From assembly GCA_025463215.1 (NCBI GenBank), contig JAOBWF010000234.1, positions 1,822-65,821 on the forward strand: a stretch of 64,000 nt of DNA. The letters run 5' to 3'. A model generated the notes under the pieces. That model was not told where the DNA came from, did no database searches, and saw nothing but the letters and a program-made list of their open reading frames with translations. Positions within the stretch are counted from its first letter, which is position 1; each line of letters begins with the position of its first letter. The DNA is from Acidobacteriota bacterium (GTDB lineage: Bacteria > Acidobacteriota > Vicinamibacteria > Vicinamibacterales > CAVVIG01). This document shows, piece by piece, positions 18,370 through 53,534 of the stretch. The position numbers were made by a program, and so were the translations under genes.

Positions 18370-19581
18370 ATGGCCATCAAGGACACGCCGCGCGGATGGC
18401 CGCGCTCCGCGACCGTGGCGCCGACGCAACGTCTGTCCGACGCGCTGTCGCTCGTCCGCCGGCGCCGTTCGACTGACGGTGCGGACGTGCTGCTCGAGGA
18501 GTGCCTTGCGTTGCTCGACCAGGTCGCCGAACAGTCGCCGTTCACGCGTGTGACATCGTCTGTCGCGGAGGCCCGCTCACGCGCCGCGCCGGCCGCCGAC
18601 GACCCGCTTCCCGAGCTGGACGGCCATTCGGCGTTGATCGAGCAGCTGAAGGACGACATCGTGTGCGTGGCGCGCGATCCGTACGTGTCTGTGCTGGTTC
18701 GAGGGGAATCCGGAACCGGCAAGGAGCGGGTCGCACGAGCCATCCACCGGTTGTCTTCGCGCGCCGCCCATTCGTTCGTCGTCGTGAACTGAGCCGGTCT
18801 GACACAGACGCTGGCAGAAGACGAGCTGTTCGGGCACGAGCGCGGCGCGTTCACCGGCGCGGTGGCCGATCGGCCGGGGCCGTTCGAGCGCGCGAACGGC
18901 GGAACGGTGTTTCTCGACGAGATCGGCGAGCTGGCGTCCGATTCGCAAATGAAGTTGTTGCGCGCGCTTCAGCAGCGCACCGTTCAGCGGCTGGGCAGCG
19001 GGCAGGAGACGCCGTTCGATGTGCGGGTGATTGCGGCCACGAACGCGGACCTTGAATTGGCGCAGCGGCGCGGGCGGTTTCGCCAGGATTTATACTACCG
19101 CCTCAAAGTCTACGAGCTGCGTGTGCCGCCGCTGCGGCGTCGCGGCGAGAGTGATCTTCGTCAACTTGCCGGGGCGATTCTGGAGCATCTCGCGGCCCGG
19201 CGGCACCGTCCGCCGGCGATCCTCGCGCCGGCCGTATGGGATGCGTTCGCACGGTACACGTGGCCGGGCAATGTCCGCGAGCTCGAGAACACACTCGAAC
19301 GGATGATCGTCGCCGCGGCAGACGACACGCTGTTGACGCGGGCGCATATGCCCGGCGAGCTCCGCGCGATGGCCGAGCGGATGCAGGGTTCGATCGACGG
19401 AGGGGCGAATGACGCGACGAGTCCGCTGCCCTCACCCGCCGAGGCGCGCGCGATCCTTCAACGGCACGATCTCAACCACGGACGAGCCGCCGCCGAGCTC
19501 GGTATATCGAGGCACCAGCTGTATCGGCTTCTCAAGCGCCGCGAGGTCGTCGACTCGGCTGCCGGCCGAGTGCCGGCTTGA
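18370..19581 (+). CDS. Sigma-54-dependent transcriptional activator (bEBP, no receiver domain) interrupted by one in-frame TGA at 18790-18792
   Basis: Walker A VLVRGESGTGKE, then ...[32 protein letters not shown] (GAFTGA), FLDEIGEL (Walker B), RVIAATN and a Fis-type HTH (AAAELGISRHQLYRLLKRR). Track ORFs 18250-18792 and 18862-19581 are in the same frame. The start is uncertain (18322 or 18370). Confidence 0.7.
18793..18815 (+). other. Stem-loop immediately 3' of the in-frame TGA of the activator gene
   Basis: GCC-G-GUCUG-ACA-CAGAC-GCU-GGC. The apical loop is ACA with no GU, so it is the weakest of the four SECIS-like candidates. Confidence 0.25.
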
Positions 19582-20290
19582 CGCGGGAATGATCGGCGGC
19601 CCTCGGCTCCTGACTGCGGCGGCGAACCGCGCGTACGACCGGCGTTCGCCGGGGCTCCCCGGCGCCGGTGATCGTCGTCGCGCCGCCCTCTTCCCGGTCG
19701 CCGCCCGCCGCTCCGTCCTGCGCCCACGCCCGCAGCCGCGCCAGCCCGCGGTAGTAATAGTGTCGCGCGCACCCCACAGAAACGGAGAGCCGCTTCGCGA
19801 CGTCCTGCATGCTGACTTCTTCGAAGCAGGCCAGTTCCAGGGTCGCTCGCTGCGGCGCGGTCAACTGTGCCAGGCCGCGTCGGATGAACCAGCGGCACTC
19901 CTGGTCCGTCAATGCCCGCGGCCGTCCACCAGCGGCCGGGTCGACGCTCTCAAGCGGCTCGCCGCGGTAGGCTGCGCGCCGGCGAAGCACGTTCTTGCGC
20001 TGCACGCTGCGCCGATAGGCGTATTGCAGCAGCCATACCCGAACCGCGCCACGCGCCGGATCGTAGAGGTGGGCCTTTCGATAGATTTCGAGGAAGACCT
20101 CCTGAGTCACGTCTTCGGCCTCCGCGTCGTCACGGAGAATGTCGGCGGCCACGCGATGGACCAGCCGGATGTACCGGCGGAACAGTGCCGCCAGCGCATC
20201 GCTTTCTGGCAGGTGCATTTCGGCGATCAGCACGGCGTCCGCTTTTTCGCCGGCGGCTCCGCGCCAGATCGTGTCGACAAAGCGTCTCAT
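19532..20290 (-). CDS. ECF-type RNA polymerase sigma factor
   Basis: Region 2 (DAEDVTQEVFLEIYRKAHLYDPARGAVRVWLLQYAYRRS) and region 4 (APQRATLELACFEEVSMQDVAKRLSVSVGCARHYYYRGLARLR). The 3' end overlaps the convergent activator gene by 50 nt. Confidence 0.8.
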   Translation of the reverse strand: MRRFVDTIWRGAAGEKADAVLIAEMHLPESDALAALFRRYIRLVHRVAADILRDDAEAEDVTQEVFLEIYRKAHLYDPARGAVRVWLLQYAYRRSVQRKNVLRRRAAYRGEPLESVDPAAGGRPRALTDQECRWFIRRGLAQLTAPQRATLELACFEEVSMQDVAKRLSVSVGCARHYYYRGLARLRAWAQDGAAGGDREEGGATTITGAGEPRRTPVVRAVRRRSQEPRAADHSRVKPALGRQPSRRPRGA

Positions 20291-20373
20291 CGTAGCGACC
20301 CTTAGGTGTTACCGTTTATCGACGTCCCTTATCGAAGCAGTGATGTCGATAGACGGTTCCAGCTTCGACGACT

Positions 20374-20790
20374 GTGAGATACACACGGCATGTGTCACGC
20401 CGCAAAGTAGCGAATGAAAAGCCCCCTCCGCGACCGGCCATCCTGCGCCCGCTCGGCAACCAGCTGCGTCGGTTGCGCCTCGAGCGAAAGCTGTCGCAGG
20501 AGCGCCTCGCCGAATTGGCGGGCTTGAACTATAAATACATCGGGCGGATCGAGCTGGCCAAGGCCGACCCCGGAGCAGACGTACTCGTCCGTCTTGCGCG
20601 TGCGCTGACGATCCCCGTCGGCGAGCTGTTCGCGACAATTACTCCCGGCGACCGCGGCCACCAGCTGTCGCCAGCCGACGTCGAAGCGCTGTCGTCAGCG
20701 CTGGGCGCTCTCACCGCCGTCGCGAATCGCATCGTCGCGCAGCAACCCCAGGCGCTGCCCTCGCGCGCGCCGCGCCGAACCCGGCGCTGA
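20374..20790 (+). CDS. XRE family HTH transcriptional regulator
   Basis: LGNQLRRLRLERKLSQERLAELAGLNYKYIGRIELAKADPGADVLVRLARALTIPVGELF. Exact start uncertain. Confidence 0.75.
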   Translation: MRYTRHVSRRKVANEKPPPRPAILRPLGNQLRRLRLERKLSQERLAELAGLNYKYIGRIELAKADPGADVLVRLARALTIPVGELFATITPGDRGHQLSPADVEALSSALGALTAVANRIVAQQPQALPSRAPRRTRR

Positions 20791-20920
20791 CCCGCAGGGC
20801 TCGCTATCGCCCTGAACGGCGACGACGATAACATCCGTCGATATCATTGTCAACGTTTGTAATACCTATAGGTGGTATCCGACGATGAAGAACGCGCGCG
20901 TCGGCCGGGCGCGTGCGCGC

Positions 20921-21286
20921 CTAGCCCGCGCGACGCCGCTTCGCACGAGCGATGATCTGCAGCGCTTCCTCGATGCACCGGAGCTCGTCATGCGTGATCA
21001 GGCACAGAGAGGTGCCGGCGGGTTCCCGGCGATTGGGAAACAGATCGACGACATCGACGGCGAGCCCGCTCGCGATCGAGGCGAGAACGTCGAGGCCGAC
21101 GTTCGTTTTGCCGCGCTCGACCTGTGAGATGTGCTTTTCCGTATTGCCCGCGCGCTCCGCCAGCTGTTCCTGACTCCAGCCGCGCTGAAGTCGCAGCTCC
21201 TTGACTCTTTTGGCCACGCGCAGCCGCACCGGCAGGTTCGCTCCCATCCGGCGGCAACTATCGGCCAACCGCGACGGGCTTACCAC
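20921..21286 (-). CDS. XRE family HTH transcriptional regulator
   Basis: VAKRVKELRLQRGWSQEQLAERAGNTEKHISQVERGKTNVGLDVLASIASGLAVDVVDLF. Same architecture as 20374-20790. Confidence 0.75.
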   Translation of the reverse strand: MVSPSRLADSCRRMGANLPVRLRVAKRVKELRLQRGWSQEQLAERAGNTEKHISQVERGKTNVGLDVLASIASGLAVDVVDLFPNRREPAGTSLCLITHDELRCIEEALQIIARAKRRRAG

Positions 21287-21288
21287 AA

Positions 21289-21329
21289 CGTATGAGTTCA
21301 GTTGTGGAGCCTAACTGAATCTATACGTC
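21289..21329. promoter_or_regulatory. Imperfect 15-bp-arm inverted repeat in the XRE/ECF divergent promoter region
   Basis: ACGTATGAGTTCAGT-N11-ACTGAATCTATACGT (12 of 15 positions complementary). A nested CCACAAC/GTTGTGG repeat lies at 21283-21307. Confidence 0.35.
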
Positions 21330-21332
21330 CTT

Positions 21333-21959
21333 GTGCCGCAGCGTAGGATGGCCGTCAAGGACGGTGTCGTGATGACGACGGCGTGTCGGGCCGACAGCAA
21401 CTCGACGACGACCTCGTCGTGGCGGCTGATCGACCGAGCGAGGATCGGCGATCGGACCGCGCTCGGCCGGCTGATCGCCCGGTGTCTTCCTGCGGTGACG
21501 CGCTGGGCGCGGCGCCGCCTGCCGCGGTGGGCGCGGACCGCGGCCGATACGACCGACTTCGTCCACGACGCCGTGCTCCGCACGCTGCGCCAGAGCGGCA
21601 CCCTCGATCTTCGCAGCCGCCGCGCGCTGGCGGGCTACCTGCGGCAGGCCGTTCAGAACCGCATCTACGACGAGCATCGGCGCATCGCCAGGCGCGGTGT
21701 TCATGACGCGCTGTCGGACGGCCTCGTCGGCCGGGATCCTTCACCGTTCGATCAGGTCATGGCGCTGGAACACGATGCCCGCTACCGCTCCGCGCTCATG
21801 CGACTCAATCCGCGCGACCGGGAATTGATCGTCGCGCACGTGGAGCTCGACTACACGCACGCGCAGCTCGGCTGCATGACGGGACGGTCGCCGAATGCGG
21901 CGCGGATGGCGCTGGAGCGCGCGGTCCGGCGGCTCGCGGCGCTGATGCGCGATGCCTGA
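21333..21959 (+). CDS. ECF-type sigma factor (kinase-associated type)
   Basis: Region 2 (DTTDFVHDAVLRTLR...YLRQAVQNRIYDEHRR) and region 4 (LNPRDRELIVAHVELDYTHAQLGCMTGRSPNAARMALERAVRRL). Overlaps the start of the downstream Ser/Thr kinase gene by 8 nt. An internal start is possible. Confidence 0.75.
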   Translation: MPQRRMAVKDGVVMTTACRADSNSTTTSSWRLIDRARIGDRTALGRLIARCLPAVTRWARRRLPRWARTAADTTDFVHDAVLRTLRQSGTLDLRSRRALAGYLRQAVQNRIYDEHRRIARRGVHDALSDGLVGRDPSPFDQVMALEHDARYRSALMRLNPRDRELIVAHVELDYTHAQLGCMTGRSPNAARMALERAVRRLAALMRDA

Positions 21960-27675: not shown

Positions 27676-27767
27676 CGAGAGCGTGCGCTACTGCGGTGGC
27701 GTTTGTGATCGCTGCCACCGTTCTGGGGGCCGCCGAGCGCAGCCAGCGGCCACACCAGAGCGACAAT

Positions 27768-31439: not shown

Positions 31440-33176
31440 TTAATGATCGGTGGCGTCATTCGAGACGGACCCTCTGGGAACGCCGGCTGTCCTCGCCTGT
31501 GGGTCGACGTTGGTCGGGAGGATGAAGCAAAAGCGTGCGCCGCGAGGAACGTTGTCGGTCGCCCACAAACGGCCGTCATGCGATTCCACGATGGAGCGGC
31601 TGATCGACAATCCCATGCCGATCCCCTGACGCTTCGTGGTAAAGAACGCCTTGAAGATCTCATCGGCCTCGTGCGGGGGCAGCCCTACTCCCGTATCGCT
31701 GACGGACACCAGCAGTTGCGCGCTTTCCGCGCGCTGCGACGTGATGGTGAGCTCGCGCGTCCCCTCCACCGTCTTCATCGCATCGATGCTGTTCATGATC
31801 AGATTCATCATCACCTGCTGCAACTGCACGCGATCACCCATGACCGGGGGAAGATCGGCCACGAGCTTCGTGCGGACCGAGATGGCGTAGCGCGAGACCT
31901 CGGTGCGCAGGAGGACGATCAGGTCTCGAATGACGTCGTTGACGTCGATTACCCCCCGTTCCGGACTACTCTTCGTGAAGAGCAAGCGGATCCGGCTGAT
32001 GATGTCCGCCGCCCGCGTTGCGTCCTTCACGGCTCTCGAAGCCGCTTCGCGCGCCTCTTCCATATTGGCCTGATCGCGTGTGAGCCAACGCAGGCAGGTA
32101 TTGGCATCCGTGAGGACGGCAGCGATCGGTTGCCTCACTTCGTGCGCCAGGGAGGCGGTCAGCTCCCCCATGGTGGTCACGCGGCTGGCGTGTGCGAGAT
32201 CCGCGTGCGCCTGACGCAATGTTTCTTCGGCCCGCTTGCGGTCCTCGATGTCGGTCCGCGTCCCGTACCACCGAAGGACTTGTCCCTGCTCATCCCGCAG
32301 GGGGTTGTTTCGGATCAAAAACCAGCGGTACTGCCCGTCCCGTCCCCGTATGCGTGCCTCCATCTCAAAAGGGGCACTGTGTGAACGCCCGCGCTCCCGA
32401 ATGATGGCTAACTTCTTGAAATCTTCCGGATGAAAAGTCTTGGCCAACGCGTCGGTTGACTGCACGGCGTCCAACGTCAGGCCGCTGAATTCCAGTTCTC
32501 GCCGGTTCGCAAAAAGAGGGCTCCAATTCGAATCGAACACCACGACTTGCTGCGGAATCACGTCGATCAGCTGACGAAGCTCCGTCTCGCTGTGCCGCAG
32601 CTCTTCGTTGGCGGCCTTGAGTTGTGTGGTTCGCTCGGCGACCTGTTGTTCGAGCGCCGCTGCGACACGCTTCTGCTCGCCGGAGCGCCGAGCCTCTTGT
32701 AATCCGATTCCGGCCTGATTGGTCGCGACGCGCAGGAGGAGCCGTTCGATATCCGTCGGGAAATCACTGCGCTGAGAGCCCGCCACCAACATACCGACTT
32801 CGTCGTCGAGGCCGAGGGAGAACGACGCAATTGAGACCTCACCAGCTCCGGCGGGGGCGGGCACCATGAAACGCGAAGCGGATTGGCCGCCCGTCAACCA
32901 GCGGCCGAGCGCTTGACCGACCTGCTGCGGCCCAACAGAGGAATACTCGGAGTGAGGCGACCGGACCTCTTCGATTGGCGGACCGCCACTCGAGTCGTTC
33001 ACGCGGGCGTACACGAAATCGAGACGCAGCATGGCGAGGAGCACGTCGAGCAGAGTGCCGACCATGTGCGATGGCTCACTGCCACCCCACAGAGCGGGAA
33101 GGGCCAGAACACTGATCAGATCGTTGACGCAGCGCCGCAGGCGCTTGATCTCATCCTCTGCAGGTTCTATTTCCAC
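31440..33176 (-). CDS. Sensor histidine kinase (GAF-like, PAS, HisKA, HATPase_c)
   Basis: PAS (VVVFDSNWSPLFANRRELEFSGLTLD...FHPEDF...YRWFLIRNNPLRDEQGQVLRWYGTRTDIEDRKRAEE), H-box LAHEVRQPIAAV, and G-boxes SDTGVGL and GIGMGLSISRSIV. GTG start 33174-33176. Confidence 0.85.
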   Translation of the reverse strand: MEIEPAEDEIKRLRRCVNDLISVLALPALWGGSEPSHMVGTLLDVLLAMLRLDFVYARVNDSSGGPPIEEVRSPHSEYSSVGPQQVGQALGRWLTGGQSASRFMVPAPAGAGEVSIASFSLGLDDEVGMLVAGSQRSDFPTDIERLLLRVATNQAGIGLQEARRSGEQKRVAAALEQQVAERTTQLKAANEELRHSETELRQLIDVIPQQVVVFDSNWSPLFANRRELEFSGLTLDAVQSTDALAKTFHPEDFKKLAIIRERGRSHSAPFEMEARIRGRDGQYRWFLIRNNPLRDEQGQVLRWYGTRTDIEDRKRAEETLRQAHADLAHASRVTTMGELTASLAHEVRQPIAAVLTDANTCLRWLTRDQANMEEAREAASRAVKDATRAADIISRIRLLFTKSSPERGVIDVNDVIRDLIVLLRTEVSRYAISVRTKLVADLPPVMGDRVQLQQVMMNLIMNSIDAMKTVEGTRELTITSQRAESAQLLVSVSDTGVGLPPHEADEIFKAFFTTKRQGIGMGLSISRSIVESHDGRLWATDNVPRGARFCFILPTNVDPQARTAGVPRGSVSNDATDH

Positions 33177-33182: not shown

Positions 33183-33950
33183 TCAGACCGGTGATCGGCC
33201 GGACGCGCTGCGCGTCGTGTGTCTTTGACGCAGCTCCCGCAAGAATTCGTCCGGCGGAACGAAGAACGCGTTCTCCTGGAGGACCCCCCCGATGATGATC
33301 ATCGGATGCGTCCGCATGATATCGACGACGATCGCCCCGCCAAACTTGGCGAGATCGTAGATTCATATGACCGGGTCCTGATATCGAGGCAAGATGTAAT
33401 TGAGCCTCGTCTCGTACTCCACCAGGTCGTCAACGCCCGGTCGATCTTCCAGGGCCCAGTCCATGTGGGCGACCAACCGCGTGAGCGCGAACCCTTCTTG
33501 CATGCCGCCGTCGAGGACTTCCTCGATCAGCGCGAGCATCCTGTCCTGATCGAAATGGCCATCGCGCAGGTACGCGTCAGCCCAGTTGCATAGCTCGAAT
33601 TGGCCGCTCTTTTCCGCCGCCTCCACATCGATGCCGGCCGACGCGAGTCGCAGGCTGTGCTCCGCGCGCAGCGTGGGATCGACGATGTGGAAGGCCTTCT
33701 CGCCCCGATCGAAACCCTCTTTGATGAACGGAAGGAGCACTCGATATTCTTCGTCGGGATGGTGAAAGAACGCGCAAACGTGGCGTTGAGCGGCAAGCAC
33801 CGACCCCGCGAACCGAATCGGTTCAGGGCTGTTGATTGACGCTCGCCCGGATTTCGTACGGTCAGTGGCGGGATCCACGGGAGTCCTCCTTCGACAGGCG
33901 CGGCCACGGCTGTCGGCTGGCAGACACGGAGAATCGCTGGCAACTGTCAC
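33183..33950 (-). CDS. MEDS-domain sensory protein interrupted by one in-frame TGA at 33363-33365
   Basis: HVCAFFHHPDEEYRVLLPFIKEGFDRGEKAFHIVDP...LNYILPRYQDPVI-TGA-IYDLAKFGGAIVVDIMRTHPMIIIGGVLQENAFFVPPDEFLRELRQRH. Same frame on both sides. Ends 6 nt before the histidine kinase start. Confidence 0.65.
33330..33356 (-). other. SECIS-like stem-loop 3' of the MEDS TGA
   Basis: The minus strand reads GAUC-U-CGCCA-AGUU-UGGCG-GGGC-GAUC. The apical GU lies 18-19 nt after the UGA. Confidence 0.35.
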
Positions 33951-46750: not shown

Positions 46751-46753
46751 TAC

Positions 46754-47568: not shown

Positions 47569-48123
47569 ATGACTCGTTGTAGCTGGTGCGGTGACGACCC
47601 GCTCTACGTCGCGTATCACGACGAAGAGTGGGGCGTGCCGGTCCATGATGATCGGCATTTGTTCGAGATGTTGATTCTCGAAGGCGCGCAGGCAGGGTTG
47701 TCGTGGATCACGATTTTGCGCAAGCGCGAGGCGTATCGAAAAGCATTCGACGAGTTCGACGCCAGGAAGATTGCCGACTACAAGTCACCAAAGTTGCGCG
47801 CGCTCATGAACGACGCCGGCATCGTGCGCAATCGGTTGAAGATCGAAGGCACGGTCAAGAACGCGAAAGCGTTCCTCGCCGTGCAGAAGGAATGTGGCAC
47901 TTTCGACCGGTTCATCTGGCAGTTTGTGGGCGGCGCGCCGATCGTCAACCGGCTGAAGCCAGGCGACAGCATCGCCGCGACCACTCCCGAGTCGAACGCG
48001 ATGAGCAAGGCGCTCAAGAAGCGCGGATTCACCTTCGTCGGTTCCACGATTTGTTACGCGTTCATGCAAGCCACCGGCATGGTGAATGACCATGTCGTTG
48101 GGTGTGTGGCCAGACGTCGGTAA
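47569..48123 (+). CDS. tag: DNA-3-methyladenine glycosylase I
   Basis: MTRCSWCGDDPLYVAYHDEEWGVPVHDDRHLFEMLILEGAQAGLSWITILRKREAYRKAF. Confidence 0.9.
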   Translation: MTRCSWCGDDPLYVAYHDEEWGVPVHDDRHLFEMLILEGAQAGLSWITILRKREAYRKAFDEFDARKIADYKSPKLRALMNDAGIVRNRLKIEGTVKNAKAFLAVQKECGTFDRFIWQFVGGAPIVNRLKPGDSIAATTPESNAMSKALKKRGFTFVGSTICYAFMQATGMVNDHVVGCVARRR

Positions 48124-48462
48124 AATGTATTGAAGCGCTTTATAGATGAGGTGACTCCTCAGGTAGGATCGGCGCGCGTCCTGTGCGTATTGGTCGAGCA
48201 CTGACTGCCGCTCGCGGTCATCGTCCTGTCATCAACGGCGCCTCTCCCAACGCCATCAATTGTCGGCAATTTGTCACGCGCTGCGCTCGACCAAATGGTA
48301 AGGTCGAAGCAGTCTCTCGCGAATGCCGTCGAACGCCGGTTCCGCATCGATGCTGCTGAGTATCGGTGACGCCGGCATGCTTCTGTGCTTCGAACGGGCC
48401 GTCCACCGCGTTGTGCCGACGCGTGTGATGCATATCCCGTGAGCCGCGGGGTGTTCACCTGC

Positions 48463-49932
48463 ATGGATACTCTCCTTAGTCTTCGCGCGATCGTTGTCGC
48501 GGGTCTCGTCCTCGTCGCTGCTGCACCAGGACACGCGAGCGTGTTATTCAGCGACGACTTCGAGTCAGGGAAGGCGGCAAATTGGACGACCGTTTCGGGC
48601 ACGTGGGCAGTGTGCGCCGCGCCGACCGGCAATCGGTATTGCCAGTCCGATCCGGCCTTCCTCCCACCGCTCGCGTTCGCCGGCGATGTCGGCTGGGCAG
48701 ATTACTCAGTTCAGACGTCAGTGCGGCTAGATGACGACGCGAAGGGGCGCGTAAGCGTGCTCGGTCGTGTTCAGGACAAATACCACTTCTACGAACTGCG
48801 CCTCGAGAAAGACACCGCAGGCGTGAAGCGGTGGTGGATCGCGAAGAACGTCAGCAATCTGTACACGATTCTCGCGTCGGGTCCGCTCGATTACGCACGC
48901 GATACCGACTACGTCCTGAAGTTGACGCTCACGAGCGCGGTCCTGCGCGCTTCGGTATCGACGGATGGCGGCACGACGTACCAGGCACTCGGCAGTGCAA
49001 CTGATAGGCAATACCGCGTGGGCCGGATCGGTCTGAAGACGAAATCCACGGGCGCCGCGTTCGATAACGTGACGGTCCTCAGCGCCGGCGGGACGCCGCC
49101 GAACACGCGGCGGTTCGGCCACATCGTTCTTGTGACTCTGGAGAATCACAGTGCCAGTGAAGTGGTCGGCAGCCCGTATTTGCCCTACTTCAACGAACTC
49201 GCGTCCCAATATGCCATTGCGACGAATTTTTACGCGAATGCCCATCCATCGGCCCCAAACTATTTCGCGTTCACCACAGGCCGGCTGTTCAATCAGACGA
49301 CGCCGTTGCCCACCGGCACGAACAACGTCGTCCGGGCGCTGAACGCGGCCGGACGTTCGTGGCGGGCGTACTTCGACGAGCCGCTGAGCTCGGCAAATGT
49401 CTTTCCATTCCTACCCGAGGTAGCGGCCGACGCTAAACAGGCCGCCAACATCGTTTCAATCACGCCCTCGTTCATCGACGCGGTCAACAACAACGTGTTA
49501 CCGCGTTACGCGTTGGTCCATCCGCGATACGCGGACAATGGGCATGCGTGTCGAGGGGCGCAGCCGTGTCTTGGGACGACGGATATCTGGCTGCAGAAGT
49601 TCATCGCTCCGTACATCGCGAATCCGTCGTTCGCGGCAAATCACGATCTGCTCATCATCACGTGGGACGAAGGCAACCTCCTCGACCACACGTGCAGCAC
49701 CGGTCCAACCACCATTCTGCTCACGTCCGACGCCCAGAAGGCGGGCGCTTGGACCTGCGGCGGGCACACGGTGTTCCTGCTGATCGGCGCGGACGTCAAG
49801 CCGCGGTACGCGTCGACGACGATTTATCATGACGAGGCGCTGCTTCGCCTGATGCTCGAAGGTCTCGGGGTCACGAAGAACCTGCCGGGCGCCGCCTCGT
49901 TCGCGCCGAACATGAACGAATTCTTCAGGTGA
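48463..49932 (+). CDS. Secreted phosphoesterase-family (AcpA/PLC-like) protein with N-terminal lectin-like domain
   Basis: ATG 48463 (MDTLLSLRAIVVAGLVLVAAAPGHA). N-terminal LFSDDFESGKAANWTTVSGTW jelly-roll-like module, then HIVLVTLENHS...PNYFAFTTG, typical of phosphoesterases. Confidence 0.65.
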   Translation: MDTLLSLRAIVVAGLVLVAAAPGHASVLFSDDFESGKAANWTTVSGTWAVCAAPTGNRYCQSDPAFLPPLAFAGDVGWADYSVQTSVRLDDDAKGRVSVLGRVQDKYHFYELRLEKDTAGVKRWWIAKNVSNLYTILASGPLDYARDTDYVLKLTLTSAVLRASVSTDGGTTYQALGSATDRQYRVGRIGLKTKSTGAAFDNVTVLSAGGTPPNTRRFGHIVLVTLENHSASEVVGSPYLPYFNELASQYAIATNFYANAHPSAPNYFAFTTGRLFNQTTPLPTGTNNVVRALNAAGRSWRAYFDEPLSSANVFPFLPEVAADAKQAANIVSITPSFIDAVNNNVLPRYALVHPRYADNGHACRGAQPCLGTTDIWLQKFIAPYIANPSFAANHDLLIITWDEGNLLDHTCSTGPTTILLTSDAQKAGAWTCGGHTVFLLIGADVKPRYASTTIYHDEALLRLMLEGLGVTKNLPGAASFAPNMNEFFR

Positions 49933-50145
49933 TGGGTCGCATCATCACGGCGTATGCGTATTCGCGTTCATACTCCTGTGCGTAGGCGGAGCGGGCTGGC
50001 GCACTCGCAGCATGACGAGGGTGCCCGGGCGCGAGACGCCGGGGACCAGGGCTTCATTTCAAAGCCATGTCCGGCGCACTTCCTCGACGCACTGGCCTGG
50101 CGCCGCCGCTCCTAGTCACGGCCGCTCGTACGCGTCGTTCCTCGC

Positions 50146-51090
50146 TCAGAAGTTCACCCGGACGCCGCCGTTGATCACGCGCCCATCCGGCGGCGCCCAT
50201 GCGTCCACCGTAAAGCGCCCGTCGGGCGCCCGCGCGGTTCGCAGGAGCGGACTCCAGTCGGTTTGCCGGACGTTGCCCAGGCTCTCCACGTTCACGAACA
50301 GGCGCAGGCGTCCAATCCGCGCTCGACCAATCCACTGAACAGCACGTACGCGTCGCTCTCGCGCCGGTACGGATTGTCCTCGAGCCGCTGCCGGCCGGCG
50401 CCCGCGCCGTCAACACGTACCGGCCGGCGGGAAACAAAGATTGACGACGCCGGCAAGTGCGCCCGCTCCGTAGAGCGCGGACGCGACGCCTTTGATGACT
50501 TCGACCCGCCCGAGATCTGTCGGTGGAATCTGGAGCAGACCGAGACCGCCAACCGCTTCGCCGAACAGCGGCAGGCCGTCCGAGAGCACGCGCGTGTAGC
50601 GGCCGCGCATATCCTGGACGCGCACACTCGCCGCGCCGAGCGACGGCGACGTCGCCTGCACGCGCACGCCGCCCATCTCGTTCAGCATCACGACGATGTC
50701 GCCGGGGGTGATCAGCTGCTTTTCTCGATCTCGTCGCGATCGAGCACTTCGACGCGCATCGTCTGATCTTCGAGCCGCTTGTCCGACCGGGTCGCGGACA
50801 CCGTCACGGTCTCCTCAACCGTCGGCATGGCTTCCAGCTCGATCGTCACGTTCTGCGGCGGCCCGGACGACGATCGTCGTCGTCACCGGTGCGAATCCGA
50901 CTTTGGTCGCGGTGACCTCCAGCCGGCCTGGCGCGATGTCGATCCGGCTCTGACCGTGGCCATCCGTCACGTCGGTCCTTCCTGCAACGACAACCTCCGC
51001 ACCGGCCAGCGGCGCGCCGCCGGCCGTCACCGTGCAGACGAAACCTGACGGAGCCGCTTGTAACGACAACAGCAATGCCAGCATTGCCAT
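50146..51090 (-). pseudogene. Decayed TonB-dependent receptor (CarboxypepD_reg + plug + last beta-strands only; frameshifts and large internal deletion)
   Basis: Three frames carry consecutive pieces. First: MAMLALLLSLQAAPSGFVCTVTAGGAPLAGAEVVVAGRTDVTDGHG. Second: ...TVSATRSDKRLEDQTMRVEVLDRDEIEK / QLITPGDIVVMLNEMGGVRVQATSPSLGAASVRVQDMRG...VEVIKGVASALYGAGA. Third: ...RLRLFVNVESLGNVRQTDWSPLL...DGRVINGGVRVNF*. About 0.95 kb in total, far too short for a barrel. Confidence 0.65.
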
Positions 51091-51457
51091 ACACGCCTCC
51101 CCTGCATCCACGAGGGTCGAGACGATTCGCGGCGTTAGATGGTGCGAGGAGAGTGGTCGAGGTCGGTGTGAACATCCGCGATCGGTGCCGGTGCACCCGG
51201 CTCACAGACCCGGCTCACGATCTCGAGACGGACGAGGTCACTGACTCGGCGGGAGGCCGCGGCGGAGAGCAGGTCGGACAGTCTGCGCTCATCGCTGTTG
51301 ACTGCGTGGTTGTGAGGCCGCGTTGATCGCATCCGTCCGAGCAGAACCGCGGATCGAGGCACGCGATCGTGCCGAGGAGCACGAACAAGGCTGAGGCGAC
51401 GAGGCGCTCCGCCAGAGTATAGGGCTTGCGCGGTCGCTCGCCCACGCGCAGAATTGA

Positions 51458-51820
51458 GTGATGCAGCGCCGCTCACGACTCCGCGTCATCACCCGGACGC
51501 TGGTCGTCGTCGCGTCGATCGCGGTCAGTTCGTTCGCGGATCTCAGAGCCGCCGCGACGGCGATGGACTGCTGCCTCAAGACCAACTACGCATGTGCCGG
51601 GTTGAGCGCGCCGGACGATTGCTGCCAGCACATGGGTCACACGCGCGAGACGACCGCGGCCGGGACGCTGGTGACGGCGCCCGCTGTGGGCCCCGCTCGT
51701 CAACCCGTCGCTCCAGAACTCGGCCCCGATCCTGGTGTTCCGACCAGAGATCCGGTGGCCGCCGCGTTCACACGTCCGCACGATCCGCCCCACCTGCATA
51801 CGTTCAGCCTGCTGATCTGA
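51458..51820 (+). CDS. Secreted Cys/His-rich small protein (putative metal-binding)
   Basis: Signal-like RLRVITRTLVVVASIAVSSFA followed by MDCCLKTNYACAGLSAPDDCCQHMGH. First gene of the mer-like operon. Confidence 0.55.
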   Translation: MMQRRSRLRVITRTLVVVASIAVSSFADLRAAATAMDCCLKTNYACAGLSAPDDCCQHMGHTRETTAAGTLVTAPAVGPARQPVAPELGPDPGVPTRDPVAAAFTRPHDPPHLHTFSLLI

Positions 51821-51877
51821 TTCCCGCCGACGCGTCACATCTCGGGGTGTGCCTCCACGTCTGAAAGGTAGGGAATC

Positions 51878-52255
51878 ATGCGCGAACGCTTCGTCAGTCT
51901 GCTCGGCCTGACATCATCGCTGACCACGCTCGTCTGTTGAACGCTGCCGATTGTATTCGTGAGCCTAGGTCTAGGCTCCGTCATCGGCTCGGCATTCGAA
52001 GCGGCTCCATGGCTGATGCAGGTTGGCCGTCATAAGACGGCGATCTTCGTCATCGTCGGTGCGCTGCTCTGTGTCAATTACTGGCTCGCCGTCGTCCGGC
52101 CGAGGCAGATGAACTGCGCGCCTGGCGAGATGTGTCACATCGACAGCCCCGCGATGCGCGCCAACCGCGTGCTGTTCTGGATCAGCGTCGCCATTTACGC
52201 CGGGGCCGTGTCGTTCACCTATGCGGCGCTCTGGTGGGTACGGATGCAGTCATGA
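51878..52255 (+). CDS. MerT-like metal transporter with in-frame TGA at 51938-51940 (second position of the TM1 Cys-Cys motif)
   Basis: MRERFVSLLGLTSSLTTLVC-TGA-TLPIVFVSLGLGSVIGSAFEAAPWLMQVGRHKTAIFVIVGALLCVNYWLAVVRPRQMNCAPGEMCHIDSPAMRANRVLFWISVAIYAGAV. Compare MerT ...ACCLGPLVL... and ...CKPGEVC... The track ORF (GTG 51959) is the same frame. Confidence 0.6.
51961..51978 (+). other. SECIS-like stem-loop 3' of the MerT-like TGA
   Basis: GAGCCUA-GGUC-UAGGCUC: perfect 7-8 bp stem with apical loop GGUC (the same tetraloop as the E. coli fdhF SECIS apex). The GGUC lies 28-31 nt after the UGA. Confidence 0.4.
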
Positions 52256-53103
52256 ACATGAAACTGAGAACCGTGTTGGCCGCGGGCGCCCTACTGGTCA
52301 GCGCGCGCATCGCCGCGGCGTCCGGCCACGGGCCGGTGTTCGGCGCGGCCACGCCCACGCTCGGTCGCGGCGGCTGGAGCGTGGACCAGGCGTGGACGCT
52401 CCGCGGCGGCGATGACGACCAGCGTCAGCAGATGCTGAAGACGATGCTGTCCTTCGGGATCACGGAGAACCTGCAGGTGTCGGGTTCCGTCCCGCTGGCG
52501 ATGAGCGACGGCCGGCTGGCGCCGGCCCGAATGATGAGCGCGATGTCGAGCGATCGCGAGTTCGAAGGACTCGTCTCGTACCGCTTTCAGCGCCGCGCCG
52601 TCGGCATCGGCGGACGTCAGGAGAGCACCGCTTTCATCGGCGGTACCGCGCCGCTGGAATCGCGCCGCGACGGTGTCGGCGCCGGCCCGTCCATCGAAGC
52701 GGGCGCGTCGACCGGCTACGCCTCACGCGCGCACTACGTCTGGGTCGGCGGCAGCGTGCAGCACTTCACCGATCGCGAGGGCGATCGCCTCGGCGAATCC
52801 CGTCTCGTGACGTTCGTCTACGGGTACCGCCCTCCCGCTTTGCGGACAGAAGCCGGCAAGCCGGACCTGCGCTTCTTCGTCGAGGCCACCGCTGAAGATC
52901 GAGGCGCCGCGCGCCTCTCGGGCATCGAATCAGGAGGCTCCGCCCGCACGGTGTTCGTGGGGCCCAGCAGCCTGCTGTTGCACAAGGCCGTCGCGCTCGA
53001 AGCCGGCGTGCTGTTCCCGGCGTATCAGATCGTACCCGCCGGATCGGTGAAGGAGCGCGTCCGCATCACGGTCAACGTCGCATATTTCTTCTGGCTAAAA
53101 TAG
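52252..53103 (+). CDS. Putative outer-membrane beta-barrel protein
   Basis: MNMKLRTVLAAGALLVSARIAAASGHG signal peptide, alternating-pattern strands and aromatic C-terminal strand VNVAYFFWLK. ATG overlaps the MerT-like stop (ATGA). Confidence 0.55.
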   Translation: MNMKLRTVLAAGALLVSARIAAASGHGPVFGAATPTLGRGGWSVDQAWTLRGGDDDQRQQMLKTMLSFGITENLQVSGSVPLAMSDGRLAPARMMSAMSSDREFEGLVSYRFQRRAVGIGGRQESTAFIGGTAPLESRRDGVGAGPSIEAGASTGYASRAHYVWVGGSVQHFTDREGDRLGESRLVTFVYGYRPPALRTEAGKPDLRFFVEATAEDRGAARLSGIESGGSARTVFVGPSSLLLHKAVALEAGVLFPAYQIVPAGSVKERVRITVNVAYFFWLK

Positions 53104-53111
53104 GAGCAGCC

Positions 53112-53534
53112 ATGACCTTCACGCACATCGTGTCGACGACACTCGCGCTCGTCCTCCTGGCCGCCGTTCCGGCGCGCGCCGAGCTTCACCACACCGAGAT
53201 CAAGACGCTCGGAATGGATTGAGAGATCTGCGCCCACGCCGTGCGCGTGGCCATGCAGAAAGTGGACGGCGTCGAGACGGTTCGTGTCAGCCTGAAAGAT
53301 GGTCTGACGATTCTCGATCTCAAACCAGGGAACAGTGTCACCTTGGCGAACCTTCGCCAGATCATCAAGAACAACGGGTTCGTCTCCAAAGAGGCGACCG
53401 TCGACGCATCCGGGCGGCCGGATAGCTCCGACACGTTCGTCGTCAGCGGAACGAACGAGCGCATTGCGATCGCACGGCCACCGCAATCAGTCGGAGCCGA
53501 CTGGCGGCTATCCGTGACGGCGCCGAAGCGGTGA
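53112..53534 (+). CDS. MerP-like periplasmic heavy-metal-associated (HMA) protein with in-frame TGA at 53220-53222 (first position of CxxC)
   Basis: MTFTHIVSTTLALVLLAAVPARAELHHTEIKTLGMD-TGA-EICAHAVRVAMQKVDGVETVRVSLKDGLTILDLKPGNSVTLANLRQIIKNNGF. Compare the HMA signature GM(T/D)CxxC. The track ORF 53241-53534 is the same frame. Confidence 0.6.
53234..53250 (+). other. SECIS-like stem-loop 3' of the MerP-like TGA
   Basis: CCACGC-CGUGC-GCGUGG. The stem starts 12 nt after the UGA and the loop GU lies 19-20 nt after it. Confidence 0.35.

What the first reader, a model, noticed from the sequence alone, without database searches (positions are those of the whole stretch)
18790..53250. All four in-frame stop interruptions in this window are TGA at conserved-Cys positions with a downstream hairpin: candidate selenocysteine recoding
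Seen: four otherwise intact genes each contain exactly one in-frame stop. The frame and the homology continue on both sides. Each stop is TGA, and each sits where family members carry Cys: bEBP VVN-U-AGL (18790), MEDS PVI-U-IYD (33363, minus strand), MerT-like LVC-U-TLP (51938) and MerP-like GMD-U-EIC (53220). Ordinary Cys codons (TGT/TGC) are used right next to them. TGA is also the normal terminator of many genes here (for example 9964, 13185, 2526 and 3749), so this is not a global reassignment. Each TGA is followed within about 30 nt by a stem-loop, and three of the four have GU or GGUC in the apical loop, like bacterial SECIS elements. Random nonsense decay would not be expected to hit Cys codons four times out of four, and the genuine decay in this window occurs by frameshift or deletion instead. 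Established: Sec is encoded by UGA plus a 3' SECIS, and selenoproteins typically have Cys-containing homologs with CU or UxxC motifs. Inference: the organism decodes Sec, and at least the two metal-binding proteins are selenoproteins. A Sec-containing bEBP or MEDS protein would be a new selenoprotein family if real.
Basis: partly seen in the sequence, partly recalled or inferred. Interest (0 to 1): 0.85.

Follow-up and report, generated by a model that had tools for sequence, protein, structure and literature searches.

The report
Three selenocysteine codons, one doubtful
Three of the four "broken" genes in this soil acidobacterial DNA are most likely intact selenoprotein genes: two metal-transport proteins of a known kind and one sensor-domain (MEDS) protein not previously listed as a selenoprotein. 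The fourth, a transcription activator, looks like an ordinary recent stop mutation.

Summary
All four in-frame TGAs are real and sit at Cys columns. I found no other interrupted genes.

- **MerT-like (51938) and periplasmic HMA/MerP-like (53220):** the TGA is present in 58/58 and 74/74 related loci from soil metagenomes and Acidobacteriota MAGs. Each TGA is followed by a hairpin that is invariant even at synonymous sites: GAGCCUA-GGUC-UAGGCUC at +27 and CCACGC-CGUGM-GCGUGG at +17. These are genuine SECIS-directed selenocysteine codons, in a conserved four-gene envelope metal operon. MerT-type and HMA-type selenoproteins are already known.
- **MEDS (33365):** about 118 of 120 homologs have Cys. 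The same codon is TGA in two other metagenomic genes, one of them in tandem with a Cys paralog. All three keep the downstream reading frame and a GU-loop hairpin at +16, with one compensatory pair. This is probably a new selenoprotein family.
- **bEBP (18790):** every ortholog with the column has Cys. No ortholog has TGA, there is no SECIS-like hairpin, and folding is no stronger than in the Cys orthologs. It is most likely a recent nonsense mutation.

The selA/B/C/D genes could not be checked. None lies in the window.

The parts
51938..51940 (+). UGA (Sec) codon of the MerT-like gene, forming a Cys-Sec pair (LVC-U-TLP) in the first predicted transmembrane helix
   Evidence: TGA at this column in 58/58 evaluable related loci. 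The preceding Cys is invariant. Also present in the independent assembly L001.
51961..51978 (+). SECIS hairpin of the MerT-like gene: GAGCCUA-GGUC-UAGGCUC. The loop starts 27 nt after the UGA.
   Evidence: Nearly invariant in 43 distinct sequences. The only stem changes are one-sided: U-A to U-G in five sequences, C-G to U-G in one, and one closing G-C broken to A-C. One sequence has a GGUU loop. Third-position entropy is 0.23 bits inside the hairpin and 1.14 outside.
51878..52255 (+). MerT-like inner-membrane protein gene (125 codons including Sec). Its true terminator is also TGA.
   Evidence: Pfam MerT 30.8 bits over residues 8-120. The second Cys pair, C-x-P-G-x-x-C, is conserved.
51458..51820 (+). 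Small Cys-rich secreted protein and first gene of the conserved operon. Motifs: AM-x-CC-x-KT, PDDCC-x-x-MGH and RPHDPPHLH.
   Evidence: Found upstream of the MerT-like gene in 40 related loci. No Pfam or NCBIfam hit.
52252..53103 (+). 283-aa protein with a signal peptide, predicted to be a 12-stranded outer-membrane beta-barrel. It was used as the anchor to collect related loci.
   Evidence: 973 homologs. AlphaFold2 gives 12 long strands, pLDDT 59 and pTM 0.61. The best PDB matches are FapF and NanC.
53112..53534 (+). Periplasmic MerP/CopZ-like HMA protein gene with a signal peptide and the motif GMD-U-EIC
   Evidence: Pfam HMA 24.9 bits. NCBIfam MerP, CopZ and UxxU_metal_bind all score below their cut-offs.
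53220..53222 (+). UGA (Sec) codon of the HMA protein, in a U-x-x-C metal-binding motif
   Evidence: TGA in 74/74 related loci at 46-88% protein identity. The true terminator varies: TGA 29, TAG 24, TAA 1.
53234..53250 (+). SECIS hairpin of the HMA gene: CCACGC-CGUG[C/A]-GCGUGG. The loop starts 17 nt after the UGA.
   Evidence: All six pairs are invariant in 57 distinct sequences, and the only variable base lies in the loop. Third-position entropy is 0.28 bits inside and 1.04 outside.
33183..33950 (-). Stand-alone MEDS-domain sensor protein gene. The start is uncertain; the terminator is TGA at 33185-33183. It is followed by a PAS-HisKA-HATPase kinase gene at 31440-33176.
   Evidence: Pfam MEDS 6e-43. 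Orthologs are stand-alone proteins of about 226 aa that end at the same place.
33363..33365 (-). UGA in MEDS at a Cys column that is more than 90% conserved (DPVI-U-IYD). Probable Sec codon.
   Evidence: The same codon is TGA in L090 and in L094 gene a, which lies in tandem with a Cys paralog. The downstream reading frame is intact in all three. dN/dS downstream between the window and L090 is 0.17.
33328..33358 (-). Candidate SECIS of MEDS: ACGAU-CUCGCCA-AGUU-UGGCGGG-(GCG)-AUCGU. The loop starts 16 nt after the UGA.
   Evidence: Passes the strict descriptor; fewer than 0.4% of codons have a stem of 7 bp or more. It is one of only three TGAs in the window with both a hairpin and coding potential on both sides. 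L094a carries a C-G to A-U compensatory pair; 91.7% of cells are paired. The Phe codon used in the hairpin is TTT, which is only 17% of Phe codons in the window.
18370..19581 (+). Sigma-54 activator (bEBP) gene next to a lasso-peptide cluster, interrupted at codon 141
   Evidence: Pfam Sigma54_activat 1e-61, plus AAA_lid_14 and HTH_8. Synteny with the lasso cluster is conserved in L096 and L100.
18790..18792 (+). TGA at the N-C-A-G column of the bEBP. Most likely a recent nonsense substitution of TGC or TGT.
   Evidence: All orthologs carry TGC or TGT. No SECIS-like hairpin is found even with relaxed rules. MFE is -25.2 against -22.6 to -29.3 kcal/mol in the Cys orthologs.

Best explanation
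The window is from a soil Acidobacteriota genome, Vicinamibacterales-like, that uses SelB/SECIS-type UGA recoding.

**The Mer-like operon (shown).** Two of the TGAs lie in a conserved four-gene envelope operon:
- a small Cys-rich secreted protein;
- a MerT-like inner-membrane protein with a vicinal Cys-Sec pair in TM1;
- a 12-stranded outer-membrane beta-barrel;
- a periplasmic HMA (MerP/CopZ-like) protein with a U-x-x-C motif.

In both recoded genes a short G+C-rich hairpin with a GU-containing apical loop lies 17-27 nt downstream of the UGA. It is kept invariant at synonymous sites, as expected of a bacterial SECIS that recruits SelB with Sec-tRNA(Sec) to the ribosome.

*Inference:* the two selenols act as soft-metal ligands, for Hg(II), Cu(I) or a similar thiophilic ion. 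The ion would be handed from the periplasmic chaperone to the membrane transporter.

**MEDS (probable).** The third TGA, in a stand-alone MEDS sensor protein paired with a PAS histidine kinase, is read the same way. A GU-loop hairpin lies 16 nt downstream, the same codon is TGA in two other MEDS genes, and Sec and Cys paralogs occur side by side. Sec here replaces one of two conserved Cys residues of the sensor domain.

*Inference:* the residue is redox- or ligand-sensing.

**bEBP (probable).** The fourth TGA, in the bEBP beside a lasso-peptide cluster, is most likely a recent nonsense mutation or strain variant that happens to hit a Cys codon.

**Probabilities per part:**
- MerT-like and MerP-like are recoded: about 0.95.
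- MEDS is recoded: about 0.75.
- The bEBP TGA is a plain stop: about 0.6.
For: **Mer genes**
- The internal TGA is present in 58/58 and 74/74 related loci, at 46-88% protein identity. These loci come from JGI soil metagenomes and five GTDB Acidobacteriota/Vicinamibacterales MAGs.
- The ORF stays open for about 101-109 codons after the TGA, while the real terminator varies among TGA, TAG and TAA.
- The hairpins are invariant. In the MerT hairpin the stem changes are one-sided, nearly all to wobble pairs.
- Third-position entropy is 0.23 and 0.28 bits inside the hairpins against 1.14 and 1.04 outside.
- Both TGAs are present in an independent assembly.

**MEDS**
- TGA at the same codon in L090 and L094a.
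- A Cys paralog lies in tandem with the TGA gene in L094.
- The hairpin is present in all three TGA genes, with a C-G to A-U compensatory change.
- The hairpin is absent from the more distant homolog L095, although it encodes the same peptide, so the amino-acid sequence does not force it.
- There is no excess of private substitutions, and dN/dS downstream is 0.17.

**Blind scan of the window**
- Of 1678 TGA triplets, only 51938, 53220 and 33365 combine a SECIS-like hairpin with coding potential on both sides.
- None of the 15 terminator TGAs has such a hairpin.

**bEBP**
- The column is Cys in every ortholog that covers it. Of 120 hits, the motif search read Cys in 96, Gly in 1 and found no motif in 23.
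- All orthologs whose DNA I read have TGC or TGT.
- No SECIS-like hairpin was found.
- The fold is no more stable than in the orthologs.

**Literature**
- MerT-type CU selenoproteins and HMA-type selenoproteins are known (10.1101/2022.07.06.499078; PMC13188914).
- Sec use is known in Acidobacteriota (PMC12013277, Table 2).
Against: - No selA, selB, selD or tRNA-Sec lies in the window. The rest of the genome could not be read.
- The Mer hairpins show conservation but no compensatory covariation.
- For MEDS, only 3 TGA genes are known against about 118 Cys forms. The hairpin is also present in close Cys orthologs, so it is not specific to the TGA forms. The pair statistics are weak with 8 sequences (29-39 of 500 shuffles reach the observed values).
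- For the bEBP, a random nonsense hit on Cys has only 2-4% probability.
- The bEBP also shows no sign of decay: dN/dS is 0.10 against 0.106 in the control pair, and it has only 4 private changes. Translation through the stop is therefore not excluded.
- Sequence alone cannot tell whether Sec or Cys is inserted.
Confidence: 0.62

Rival explanations
1. All four TGAs, including the one in the bEBP, are decoded as selenocysteine. The bEBP would use an atypical SECIS that my descriptor misses.
For: - The bEBP stop is at a Cys codon, where chance gives only 2-4%.
- The gene shows no decay: dN/dS downstream is 0.10, the same as the control pair, and private substitutions are not in excess.
- Window-specific substitutions (P to Q via CAG, V to E via GAG, TTT to TTC) add base pairs to local hairpins.
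- Bacterial SECIS elements are diverse, and atypical ones are missed by models (PMC12013277).
Against: - No ortholog has TGA: the column is Cys in every ortholog that covers it.
- No hairpin with a GU loop was found, even with a 4-bp stem and a distance of 8-45 nt.
- The best G-loop hairpin starts 40 nt downstream, outside the usual 16-37 nt.
- The overall fold is no more stable than in the Cys orthologs.
- The Cys is not essential in bEBPs: one homolog has Gly at this position. No functional gain from Sec is therefore expected.
Confidence: 0.15
2. The UGAs are recoded through the hairpins, but with cysteine rather than selenocysteine. This would use a tRNA-Sec-like tRNACys(UCA) and a SelB paralog, as described for selC*/selB* systems.
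For: - Such systems exist, and they read Sec-type UGA codons as Cys (PMC5389517).
- Sequence data here cannot distinguish which residue is inserted.
- An odd 98-nt tRNA-like gene lies near the operon in three related loci.
Against: - selC* genes were reported in Firmicutes, Thermodesulfobacteria, Nitrospirae and Proteobacteria, all anaerobes, and not in Acidobacteria.
- The tRNA-like element has a TTC anticodon, not UCA, and matches no Rfam tRNA model.
- Maintaining UGA plus a hairpin in about 1000 homologs merely to insert Cys would give no benefit over a TGC codon.
Confidence: 0.06
3. A general, SECIS-independent opal suppressor inserts Cys or Sec at UGA. It would be an acidobacterial allo-tRNA or a tRNACys(UCA) delivered by EF-Tu. 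TGC to TGA changes at Cys codons would then be nearly neutral and could accumulate anywhere.
For: - This would explain why lineage-specific TGAs (bEBP, MEDS) fall on Cys codons without invoking selection.
- Acidobacteria carry tRNAs proposed to be nonsense suppressors (PMC5389517).
- TGA ends only 15 of 34 genes here. From memory, that is lower than usual for 66% GC.
Against: - TGA is still the commonest terminator, and all four of these genes themselves end in TGA.
- Three of the four sites carry specific hairpins, which a SECIS-independent mechanism would not need.
- No suppressor tRNA lies in the window.
- 152 ordinary Cys codons against 4 TGAs does not suggest free interchange.
Confidence: 0.05
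4. All four are pseudogenes or sequencing or assembly errors, and TGA is simply a stop.
For: - The window does contain decayed genes, such as a TonB-dependent receptor remnant at about 50410-51111.
- The bEBP TGA is unique to this genome.
Against: - For the Mer genes this is impossible. The same 'error' appears in 58 and 74 independent contigs with open downstream frames and conserved hairpins.
- An independent assembly agrees on the two Mer TGAs.
- The probability that four random nonsense hits all fall on Cys is about 1e-6 to 1e-7.
Confidence: 0.02

Closest known systems
MerT-family selenoproteins with a CU motif (Haft & Gwadz 2022, bioRxiv 10.1101/2022.07.06.499078, e.g. WP_250634603.1); NCBIfam NF045683 MerT/CopZ fusion-like heavy metal transport selenoprotein; 'putative mercuric transport protein' PF02411 in the selenoprotein lists (PMC13188914)
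   Same: A small membrane protein of the MerT type in which one residue of the vicinal Cys pair in the first helix is Sec (C-U). A second cytoplasmic Cys pair is present. It is associated with an HMA metal-binding module.
   Different: - It scores far below the NF045683 cut-off (21 bits against 375) and just below Pfam's MerT cut-off.
- It is not fused to the HMA domain. Here the HMA protein is a separate, secreted selenoprotein.
- It is embedded in a four-gene operon with an outer-membrane barrel and a Cys-rich protein, with no merA or merR nearby.
- The host is soil Acidobacteriota.
HMA-domain selenoproteins: NF041115 UxxU metal-binding (seleno)protein and the Sec-containing cation-transporting P-type ATPase (UxxC) (PMC13188914)
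   Same: Sec replaces the first Cys of the GMxCxxC metal-binding loop of a ferredoxin-like HMA domain.
   Different: - The motif is U-x-x-C rather than U-x-x-U.
- The protein is a periplasmic MerP-like protein with a signal peptide and a C-terminal extension of about 50 aa.
- It scores 31.6 bits against a cut-off of 95.
E. coli fdhF-type bacterial SECIS (bSECISearch consensus, recalled from memory: loop 16-37 nt after the UGA, G or GU in the apical loop)
   Same: A short hairpin inside the coding sequence, with loops GGUC, CGUGC and AGUU that have GU at loop positions 2-3. The loop starts 27, 17 and 16 nt after the UGA.
   Different: The sequences are unrelated to fdhF. No bulged U is evident in the upper stem. 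SelB binding was not tested.
MEDS domain proteins (PF14417; DcmR, RsbA-type regulators)
   Same: A full-length MEDS domain (6e-43), stand-alone, encoded next to a signalling partner. The partner is a PAS histidine kinase here and a bEBP in L091 and L095.
   Different: - One of the two conserved Cys residues is encoded by UGA.
- MEDS (PF14417) is absent from the selenoprotein-family table of the 2026 review.
- No paper in the library links the MEDS domain with selenoproteins.
selC* tRNACys / SelB* recoding of Sec codons with Cys, and acidobacterial allo-tRNAs (Mukai et al., PMC5389517)
   Same: UGA at Cys/Sec positions is read through rather than terminating. An acidobacterial context for unusual tRNAs is documented.
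   Different: No such tRNA or selB* was seen here. The systems were described in other phyla. This is only a rival for which residue is inserted.

Membership tests
Bacterial selenoprotein gene (UGA-Sec + SECIS) | In-frame UGA with the reading frame and homology continuing on both sides | tested here: met
   Met at all four sites: with Pfam domains spanning the stop.
Bacterial selenoprotein gene (UGA-Sec + SECIS) | Cys-containing homologs at exactly the UGA column | tested here: met
   bEBP: Cys in 14/14 full-length orthologs. MEDS: about 118/120. For the MerT-like and HMA proteins, the column corresponds to the family's CC and CxxC motifs; this rests on established knowledge and the Pfam match, since no Cys ortholog was in the sampled loci.
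Bacterial selenoprotein gene (UGA-Sec + SECIS) | UGA conserved at the same column in orthologs from other organisms or samples: MerT-like and MerP-like | tested here: met
   58/58 and 74/74 loci. The true terminator varies.
Bacterial selenoprotein gene (UGA-Sec + SECIS) | UGA at the same column in other organisms or samples: MEDS | tested here: met
   L090 (JGI 3300061846) and L094 gene a (GCA_009772495.1), the latter in tandem with a Cys paralog. There are only two extra cases.
Bacterial selenoprotein gene (UGA-Sec + SECIS) | UGA at the same column in other organisms or samples: bEBP | tested here: not met
   No TGA ortholog among 120 hits. All DNA examined has TGC or TGT.
Bacterial selenoprotein gene (UGA-Sec + SECIS) | Hairpin with G/GU in the apical loop, about 16-37 nt after the UGA | tested here: met
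   MerT GGUC at +27, MerP CGUGC at +17, MEDS AGUU at +16. The null rate is 1.1% of codons. The blind scan picks out only these three sites. The bEBP does not meet this feature.
Bacterial selenoprotein gene (UGA-Sec + SECIS) | Hairpin conserved beyond what the protein sequence requires | tested here: met
   MerT and MerP: third-position entropy 0.23 and 0.28 bits inside the hairpin against 1.14 and 1.04 outside. MEDS gives partial support: one compensatory pair, use of the rare TTT codon, and loss of the hairpin in L095.
Bacterial selenoprotein gene (UGA-Sec + SECIS) | selA, selB, selC (tRNA-Sec) and selD present in the genome | not testable with these tools
   None lies in the 64-kb window. 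The other contigs of the source genome could not be retrieved.
Bacterial selenoprotein gene (UGA-Sec + SECIS) | Selenium actually incorporated at the site | not testable with these tools
   Needs 75Se labelling or Sec-aware mass spectrometry.
MerT mercuric transport protein (PF02411 / NF010314) | Score above the curated family threshold | tested here: not met
   Pfam 30.8 bits against 32.9. NCBIfam MerT 27.7 against 150. It is therefore 'MerT-like', not a MerT equivalog.
MerT mercuric transport protein (PF02411 / NF010314) | Vicinal Cys pair in TM1 and a second Cys pair in the cytoplasmic loop | tested here: met
   C-U in 58/58 loci, and C-x-P-G-x-x-C conserved.
NF045683 MerT/CopZ fusion selenoprotein; NF041115 UxxU metal-binding selenoprotein | Score above the NCBIfam cut-off | tested here: not met
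   21.1 and 19.9 bits against 375; 31.6 against 95.
HMA domain (PF00403) | Pfam gathering score and the GMxCxxC loop | tested here: met
   24.9 bits against 24.8. The loop reads GMD-U-E-I-C.
MEDS domain (PF14417) | Pfam gathering score over the whole domain | tested here: met
   146.9 bits against 29.8, covering profile positions 1-161 of 161.
Sigma-54 activator (bEBP, PF00158) | AAA+ sigma-54 interaction domain, lid and C-terminal HTH | tested here: met
   207.8 bits, plus AAA_lid_14 and HTH_8. The GAFTGA loop is present.
selC*/selB* Cys recoding (Mukai 2017) | tRNA-Sec-like tRNACys with a UCA anticodon and U73, plus a selB paralog | not testable with these tools
   Not in the window.

The most novel reading that the evidence does not exclude
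The bEBP UGA, which has no recognisable SECIS and no UGA orthologs, is nevertheless translated as Sec or Cys. This acidobacterial lineage would then tolerate fresh TGC-to-TGA changes at arbitrary Cys codons. The mechanism could be a very permissive SelB/SECIS requirement or a tRNA-Sec-like or allo-tRNA opal suppressor. The MEDS case would be the same process caught at a later, fixed stage. That would amount to an ongoing, partly SECIS-independent Cys/Sec codon exchange in a free-living bacterium.
Probability: 0.12. Interest if true: 0.8.

Novelty: new member of a known kind. Interest (0 to 1): 0.5.

Why it matters
1. **Annotation.** A four-gene operon with about 1000 homologs in soil metagenomes is systematically mis-annotated. 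The MerT-like gene is called as a 79-aa fragment, and the HMA gene is split into 36-aa and 93-aa pieces. One IMG call even switched to genetic code 4, reading the TGA as Trp. Recognising the two Sec codons restores complete proteins. It also shows that abundant soil Acidobacteriota (Vicinamibacterales) depend on selenium for a metal-handling pathway that spans the cell envelope.

2. **A selenoprotein in signalling.** A selenocysteine in a MEDS sensor domain would add signal transduction to the mostly redox-enzyme repertoire of bacterial selenoproteins. It would also point to the conserved Cys pair as the sensing site of this poorly understood domain.

3. **How Cys-to-Sec changes arise.** The Cys-form MEDS genes already carry the hairpin. 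This is a concrete case for studying how Cys-to-Sec conversions start from a pre-existing SECIS-like structure.

4. **Method.** In GC-rich genomes a downstream hairpin alone means nothing. Conservation of the UGA and of synonymous sites is what counts.

Tried and rejected
- **Generic hairpin energy** (bSECIS-like window, G in the loop) against 552 control codons. It does not discriminate, with null fractions of 0.15-0.5, so I replaced it with a stricter descriptor.
- **GC3-based screen for read-through stops.** It was too strict and missed the real sites, so I replaced it with a codon-usage gene map.
- **tRNA and Rfam scans of the window.** Nothing found.
- **Pfam and NCBIfam annotation of essentially all window genes, looking for selA/B/D.** None found.
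- **MEDS terminator.** The TGA at 33185 is followed in frame by TGT and the kinase ORF, and I considered it a possible fifth recoded site or a fusion. I rejected this because the orthologs are stand-alone proteins that end there.
- **Same-frame junctions at 6597, 47148, 55894 and 61796.** These are normal stops, tandem paralogs or non-genes.
- **P0107 and P0047, possible TGA-split bEBP orthologs.** Both are contig-end truncations, and L002 has TGT.
- **P0268 (Trp at the MEDS column).** It has a real TGG, not a TGA, in an otherwise odd sequence.
- **Retrieving the source contig through the window's own bEBP fragment.** It is not on record.
- **PDB sequence search with the MEDS profile.** No solved relative.
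- **Rfam on the tRNA-like element in L052.** No tRNA match.
- **dN/dS downstream of the bEBP stop.** The value, 0.10, is uninformative about a recent mutation.

Full report
**Observation**

The four stops are real. TGA lies at 18790-18792 (+), 33365-33363 (-), 51938-51940 (+) and 53220-53222 (+), and translation continues in frame across each one. With Cys substituted for the stop, Pfam domains run straight through the stop:

| Gene | Pfam domain | Score |
|---|---|---|
| bEBP | Sigma54_activat | 1e-61 |
| MEDS | MEDS | 6e-43, full profile |
| MerT-like | MerT | 30.8 bits, cut-off 32.9 |
| MerP-like | HMA | 24.9 bits, cut-off 24.8 |

The window is 66% GC. No tRNA or Rfam family was detected.

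TGA is also the terminator of 15 of 34 confident genes, including all four genes in question. This is therefore not a reassigned code. A codon-usage gene map and inspection of every same-frame ORF junction turned up no further interrupted genes. A Logan assembly of run SRR13312994 reproduces window 50780-53990 with one mismatch and has both Mer TGAs.

**Is the hairpin more than chance?**

With a bSECIS-like rule (single hairpin, loop 16-37 nt downstream, G in the first two loop bases), the four sites have energies of -13 to -19 kcal/mol. Between 15% and 50% of 552 control codons in this DNA reach those values.

A stricter descriptor suggested by the two verified elements is met by 1.1% of 15,357 codons, or 0.37% for stems of 7 bp or more. 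It requires an uninterrupted stem of at least 6 bp, a 4-6 nt loop with GU at loop positions 2-3, and a loop start 14-30 nt downstream. MerT (GAGCCUA-GGUC-UAGGCUC, +27), MerP (CCACGC-CGUGC-GCGUGG, +17) and MEDS (UCUCGCCA-AGUU-UGGCGGGG, +16) pass it. The bEBP fails even a much relaxed version.

I chose the descriptor after seeing the sites, so I also ran a blind scan. Of all 1678 TGA triplets on both strands, the only ones that combine such a hairpin with positive coding potential on both sides are 51938, 53220 and 33365. None of the 15 terminator TGAs has one.

**The two metal-protein genes**

The 283-aa gene between them (52252-53103, no Pfam family) has 973 homologs. I used it as an anchor to fetch 5 loci from GTDB genomes, all Acidobacteriota/Vicinamibacterales MAGs, and 80 loci from JGI soil metagenomes.

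- The MerT-like column is TGA in 58 of 58 evaluable loci.
- The HMA column is TGA in 74 of 74 loci, at 46-88% protein identity.
- After the internal TGA the frame stays open for about 101-109 codons. The genuine terminator of the HMA gene varies: TGA 29, TAG 24, TAA 1.
- Downstream, the hairpin nucleotides are almost invariant while neighbouring synonymous sites vary freely. At codons whose amino acid is conserved, third-position entropy is 0.23 and 0.28 bits inside the hairpins against 1.14 and 1.04 bits elsewhere.
- RNAalifold recovers both hairpins. In the MerT stem the changes are one-sided: U-A to U-G in five sequences, C-G to U-G in one, and one closing G-C broken to A-C. In MerP the single variable base is in the loop.

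This pattern is not compatible with pseudogenes or sequencing errors. It is the signature of SECIS-directed recoding.

The C-U dipeptide and a second C-x-P-G-x-x-C pair are invariant in the MerT-like protein. The HMA protein reads GMD-U-x-x-C behind a signal peptide.

The operon also contains a conserved Cys-rich 120-aa protein, present upstream in 40 loci. The anchor protein is predicted to be a 12-stranded beta-barrel. AlphaFold2 gives pLDDT 59 and pTM 0.61, and the best PDB matches are FapF and NanC, so this is only a moderate-confidence fold assignment.

*Inferred mechanism:* a soft-metal relay across the envelope. The route would be an outer-membrane channel, then a periplasmic Sec-containing chaperone, then a Cys-Sec site in the inner-membrane transporter.

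These kinds of protein are already known. NCBIfam holds a MerT/CopZ fusion selenoprotein and a UxxU metal-binding selenoprotein, although both models score far below their cut-offs here. Haft and Gwadz mention a small group of MerT-family CU selenoproteins. 'Putative mercuric transport protein' and a UxxC cation ATPase are in the current lists.

**MEDS**

The closest homologs are stand-alone proteins of about 226 aa. They end where the window gene ends, so the TGA at 33185 is the true stop and the kinase that follows in frame is a separate gene. About 118 of the 120 best hits read DPVI-C-(V/T)YD.

One hit (P0252) reads W at that column. Its DNA (L090, JGI 3300061846) has TGA there, and the gene had been called with code 4. 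A second hit with W (P0268, L093) has a real TGG.

While fetching a distant Cys homolog I found that L094 (GCA_009772495.1) carries two MEDS genes in tandem. The first has TGA at this codon and an intact 60-codon continuation. The second has TGC.

All three TGA genes share the same hairpin architecture. In L094a the outermost upper-stem pair is A-U instead of C-G, which is a compensatory change, and U-G becomes C-G. Counted over eight sequences, 91.7% of cells pair and one pair has changes on both sides. With so few sequences this is only weakly above the shuffles.

The hairpin is not dictated by the peptide. L095 encodes LAKFG with AAA-TTC-GGG and has no hairpin. All the hairpin-bearing genes use TTT for Phe, a codon that makes up only 17% of Phe codons in the window.

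Close Cys orthologs (L089, L091, L094b) carry the same hairpin. The structure therefore either predates the Cys-to-Sec change or is a relic of a Sec ancestor.

The window protein has no excess of private substitutions. Between the window and L090, dN/dS downstream of the TGA is 0.17.

By the three criteria used in the field (Cys homologs, TGA homologs elsewhere, a SECIS-like structure; PMC12013277), MEDS qualifies as a new selenoprotein candidate. PF14417 is absent from the 2026 review's table of families, and no paper in the library links the MEDS domain with selenoproteins. No solved structure is related by sequence, so the position of the residue in the fold is unknown.

**bEBP**

- All 14 full-length orthologs (57-79% identity) read VVN-C-AGL.
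- Of 120 hits, my motif search read Cys at the column in 96, Gly in 1, and found no motif in 23. None of those 23 is a TGA-split fragment.
- Two apparently truncated hits are contig-end artefacts, and one of them shows TGT.
- DNA of six ortholog loci (three distinct sequences) shows TGC or TGT.
- The 66 nt after the codon fold to -25.2 kcal/mol in the window and to -22.6 to -29.3 in the Cys orthologs, so there is no window-specific structure.
- The gene is the conserved neighbour of a lasso-peptide cluster.
- It shows no decay: dN/dS is 0.10 against 0.106 for a control pair, and it has four private changes.

The simplest reading is a very recent nonsense mutation or a strain variant.

What keeps this open is that a random nonsense substitution lands on a Cys codon only 2-4% of the time under several mutation models. 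I put about 0.6 on a plain stop, 0.15 on an unrecognised SECIS, and the rest on other read-through mechanisms or artefacts.

**Rival mechanisms**

Recoding with Cys through a tRNA-Sec-like tRNACys(UCA) and a SelB paralog, and acidobacterial allo-tRNAs as suppressors, are documented possibilities (PMC5389517). Neither can be excluded from sequence. The first was not reported in Acidobacteria. A SECIS-independent suppressor would not need the conserved hairpins, and TGA remains the main terminator.

**Limits**

The sel genes and tRNA-Sec could not be checked. None lies in the window, and the remainder of the genome was not retrievable. Sec use by this organism is inferred from two things: the perfectly conserved UGA-plus-SECIS cassettes, and the known Sec trait in Acidobacteriota (PMC12013277).

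**Verdict**

- The Mer-type proteins are new members of known selenoprotein kinds.
- MEDS is a probable new selenoprotein family.
- The mechanism is the standard bacterial one.

Noticed in passing
window 13170-17532 (-) and 18370-19581 (+); L096, L100: The bEBP sits beside a lasso-peptide cluster: Asn-synthase-like cyclase at 14851-16884, transglutaminase-like protease at 16775-17299, PqqD at 17170-17532, and a small precursor-like ORF at 14730-14897. A Peptidase_S8 gene and a large gene at 7073-9964 lie upstream; in L100 the equivalent gene carries CarboxypepD_reg and OMP beta-barrel domains. The whole arrangement is syntenic in two metagenome contigs, which carry two 46-aa precursor ORFs.
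   Followed up: partly
window ~50410-51111 (-): A remnant of a TonB-dependent receptor. Only the CarboxypepD_reg and Plug parts remain (about 230 aa of an expected 1100 or so), and they abut the Mer-like operon. In L027 and L035 a homologous Plug gene lies downstream of the operon instead. This is real gene decay or rearrangement next to the intact Sec genes.
   Followed up: partly
L052:3074-3171, L053:4172-4269, L055:4770-4867: ARAGORN calls a 98-nt tRNA-like gene (anticodon TTC, long variable arm, 6-bp anticodon stem, imperfect acceptor stem, 3' CCA) about 1.4 kb downstream of the Sec-HMA gene. No Rfam tRNA model matches it. It resembles the acidobacterial 'allo-tRNAs' of Mukai et al. It is not present in the window.
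   Followed up: partly
L094:780-1448 and 1501-2175: Tandem MEDS paralogs, the first with TGA and the second with TGC at the same codon, followed by a HisKA/HATPase kinase. This is a Sec/Cys paralog pair in one locus.
   Followed up: yes
L090:615-1295 (protein P0252): The public gene call reads through the MEDS TGA as Trp, so genetic code 4 was evidently applied to this contig. Selenoprotein genes can hide in databases as 'W' variants as well as truncated fragments.
   Followed up: yes
L093:107-826 (protein P0268): A MEDS homolog with TGG (Trp) at the Cys/Sec column. It also has changes at otherwise invariant residues (His to Pro, Asp to Ala) and a one-residue deletion. It may be a decaying copy or a low-quality assembly.
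   Followed up: partly
L089, L091, L094b (Cys-form MEDS genes): Cys-containing MEDS orthologs keep the same CUCGCCA-AGUU-UGGCGG hairpin as the TGA forms, including the rare TTT codon. dS downstream of the codon (0.5-0.8) is lower than upstream (0.7-1.4) in all pairs. This is either a fossil or a pre-adapted SECIS.
   Followed up: partly
window 51458-51820 (+): A conserved 120-aa secreted Cys-rich protein with motifs AM-x-CC-x-KT-x-Y-x-CAG, PDDCC-x-x-MGH and a C-terminal RPHDPPHLH-x-F-x-LLI. It has no family assignment. It is the first gene of the Sec operon in 40 loci.
   Followed up: partly
window 5943-6992 (+): Two tandem paralogous genes of about 130 aa with no known family, both carrying the motif LRAACR-x-x-IDEPAL. 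They are separated by a TAG and lie in the same frame. This is not an interrupted gene.
   Followed up: partly
whole window: Terminator usage among 34 confident genes is TGA 15, TAG 12, TAA 7. From memory, that TGA share is lower than I would expect for a 66% GC genome. I did not compare it with relatives.
   Followed up: no
protein P0028 (bEBP homolog): One bEBP homolog has Gly instead of Cys at the N-C-A-G column. The Cys is therefore not indispensable for this family, which argues against any functional reason for Sec there.
   Followed up: no
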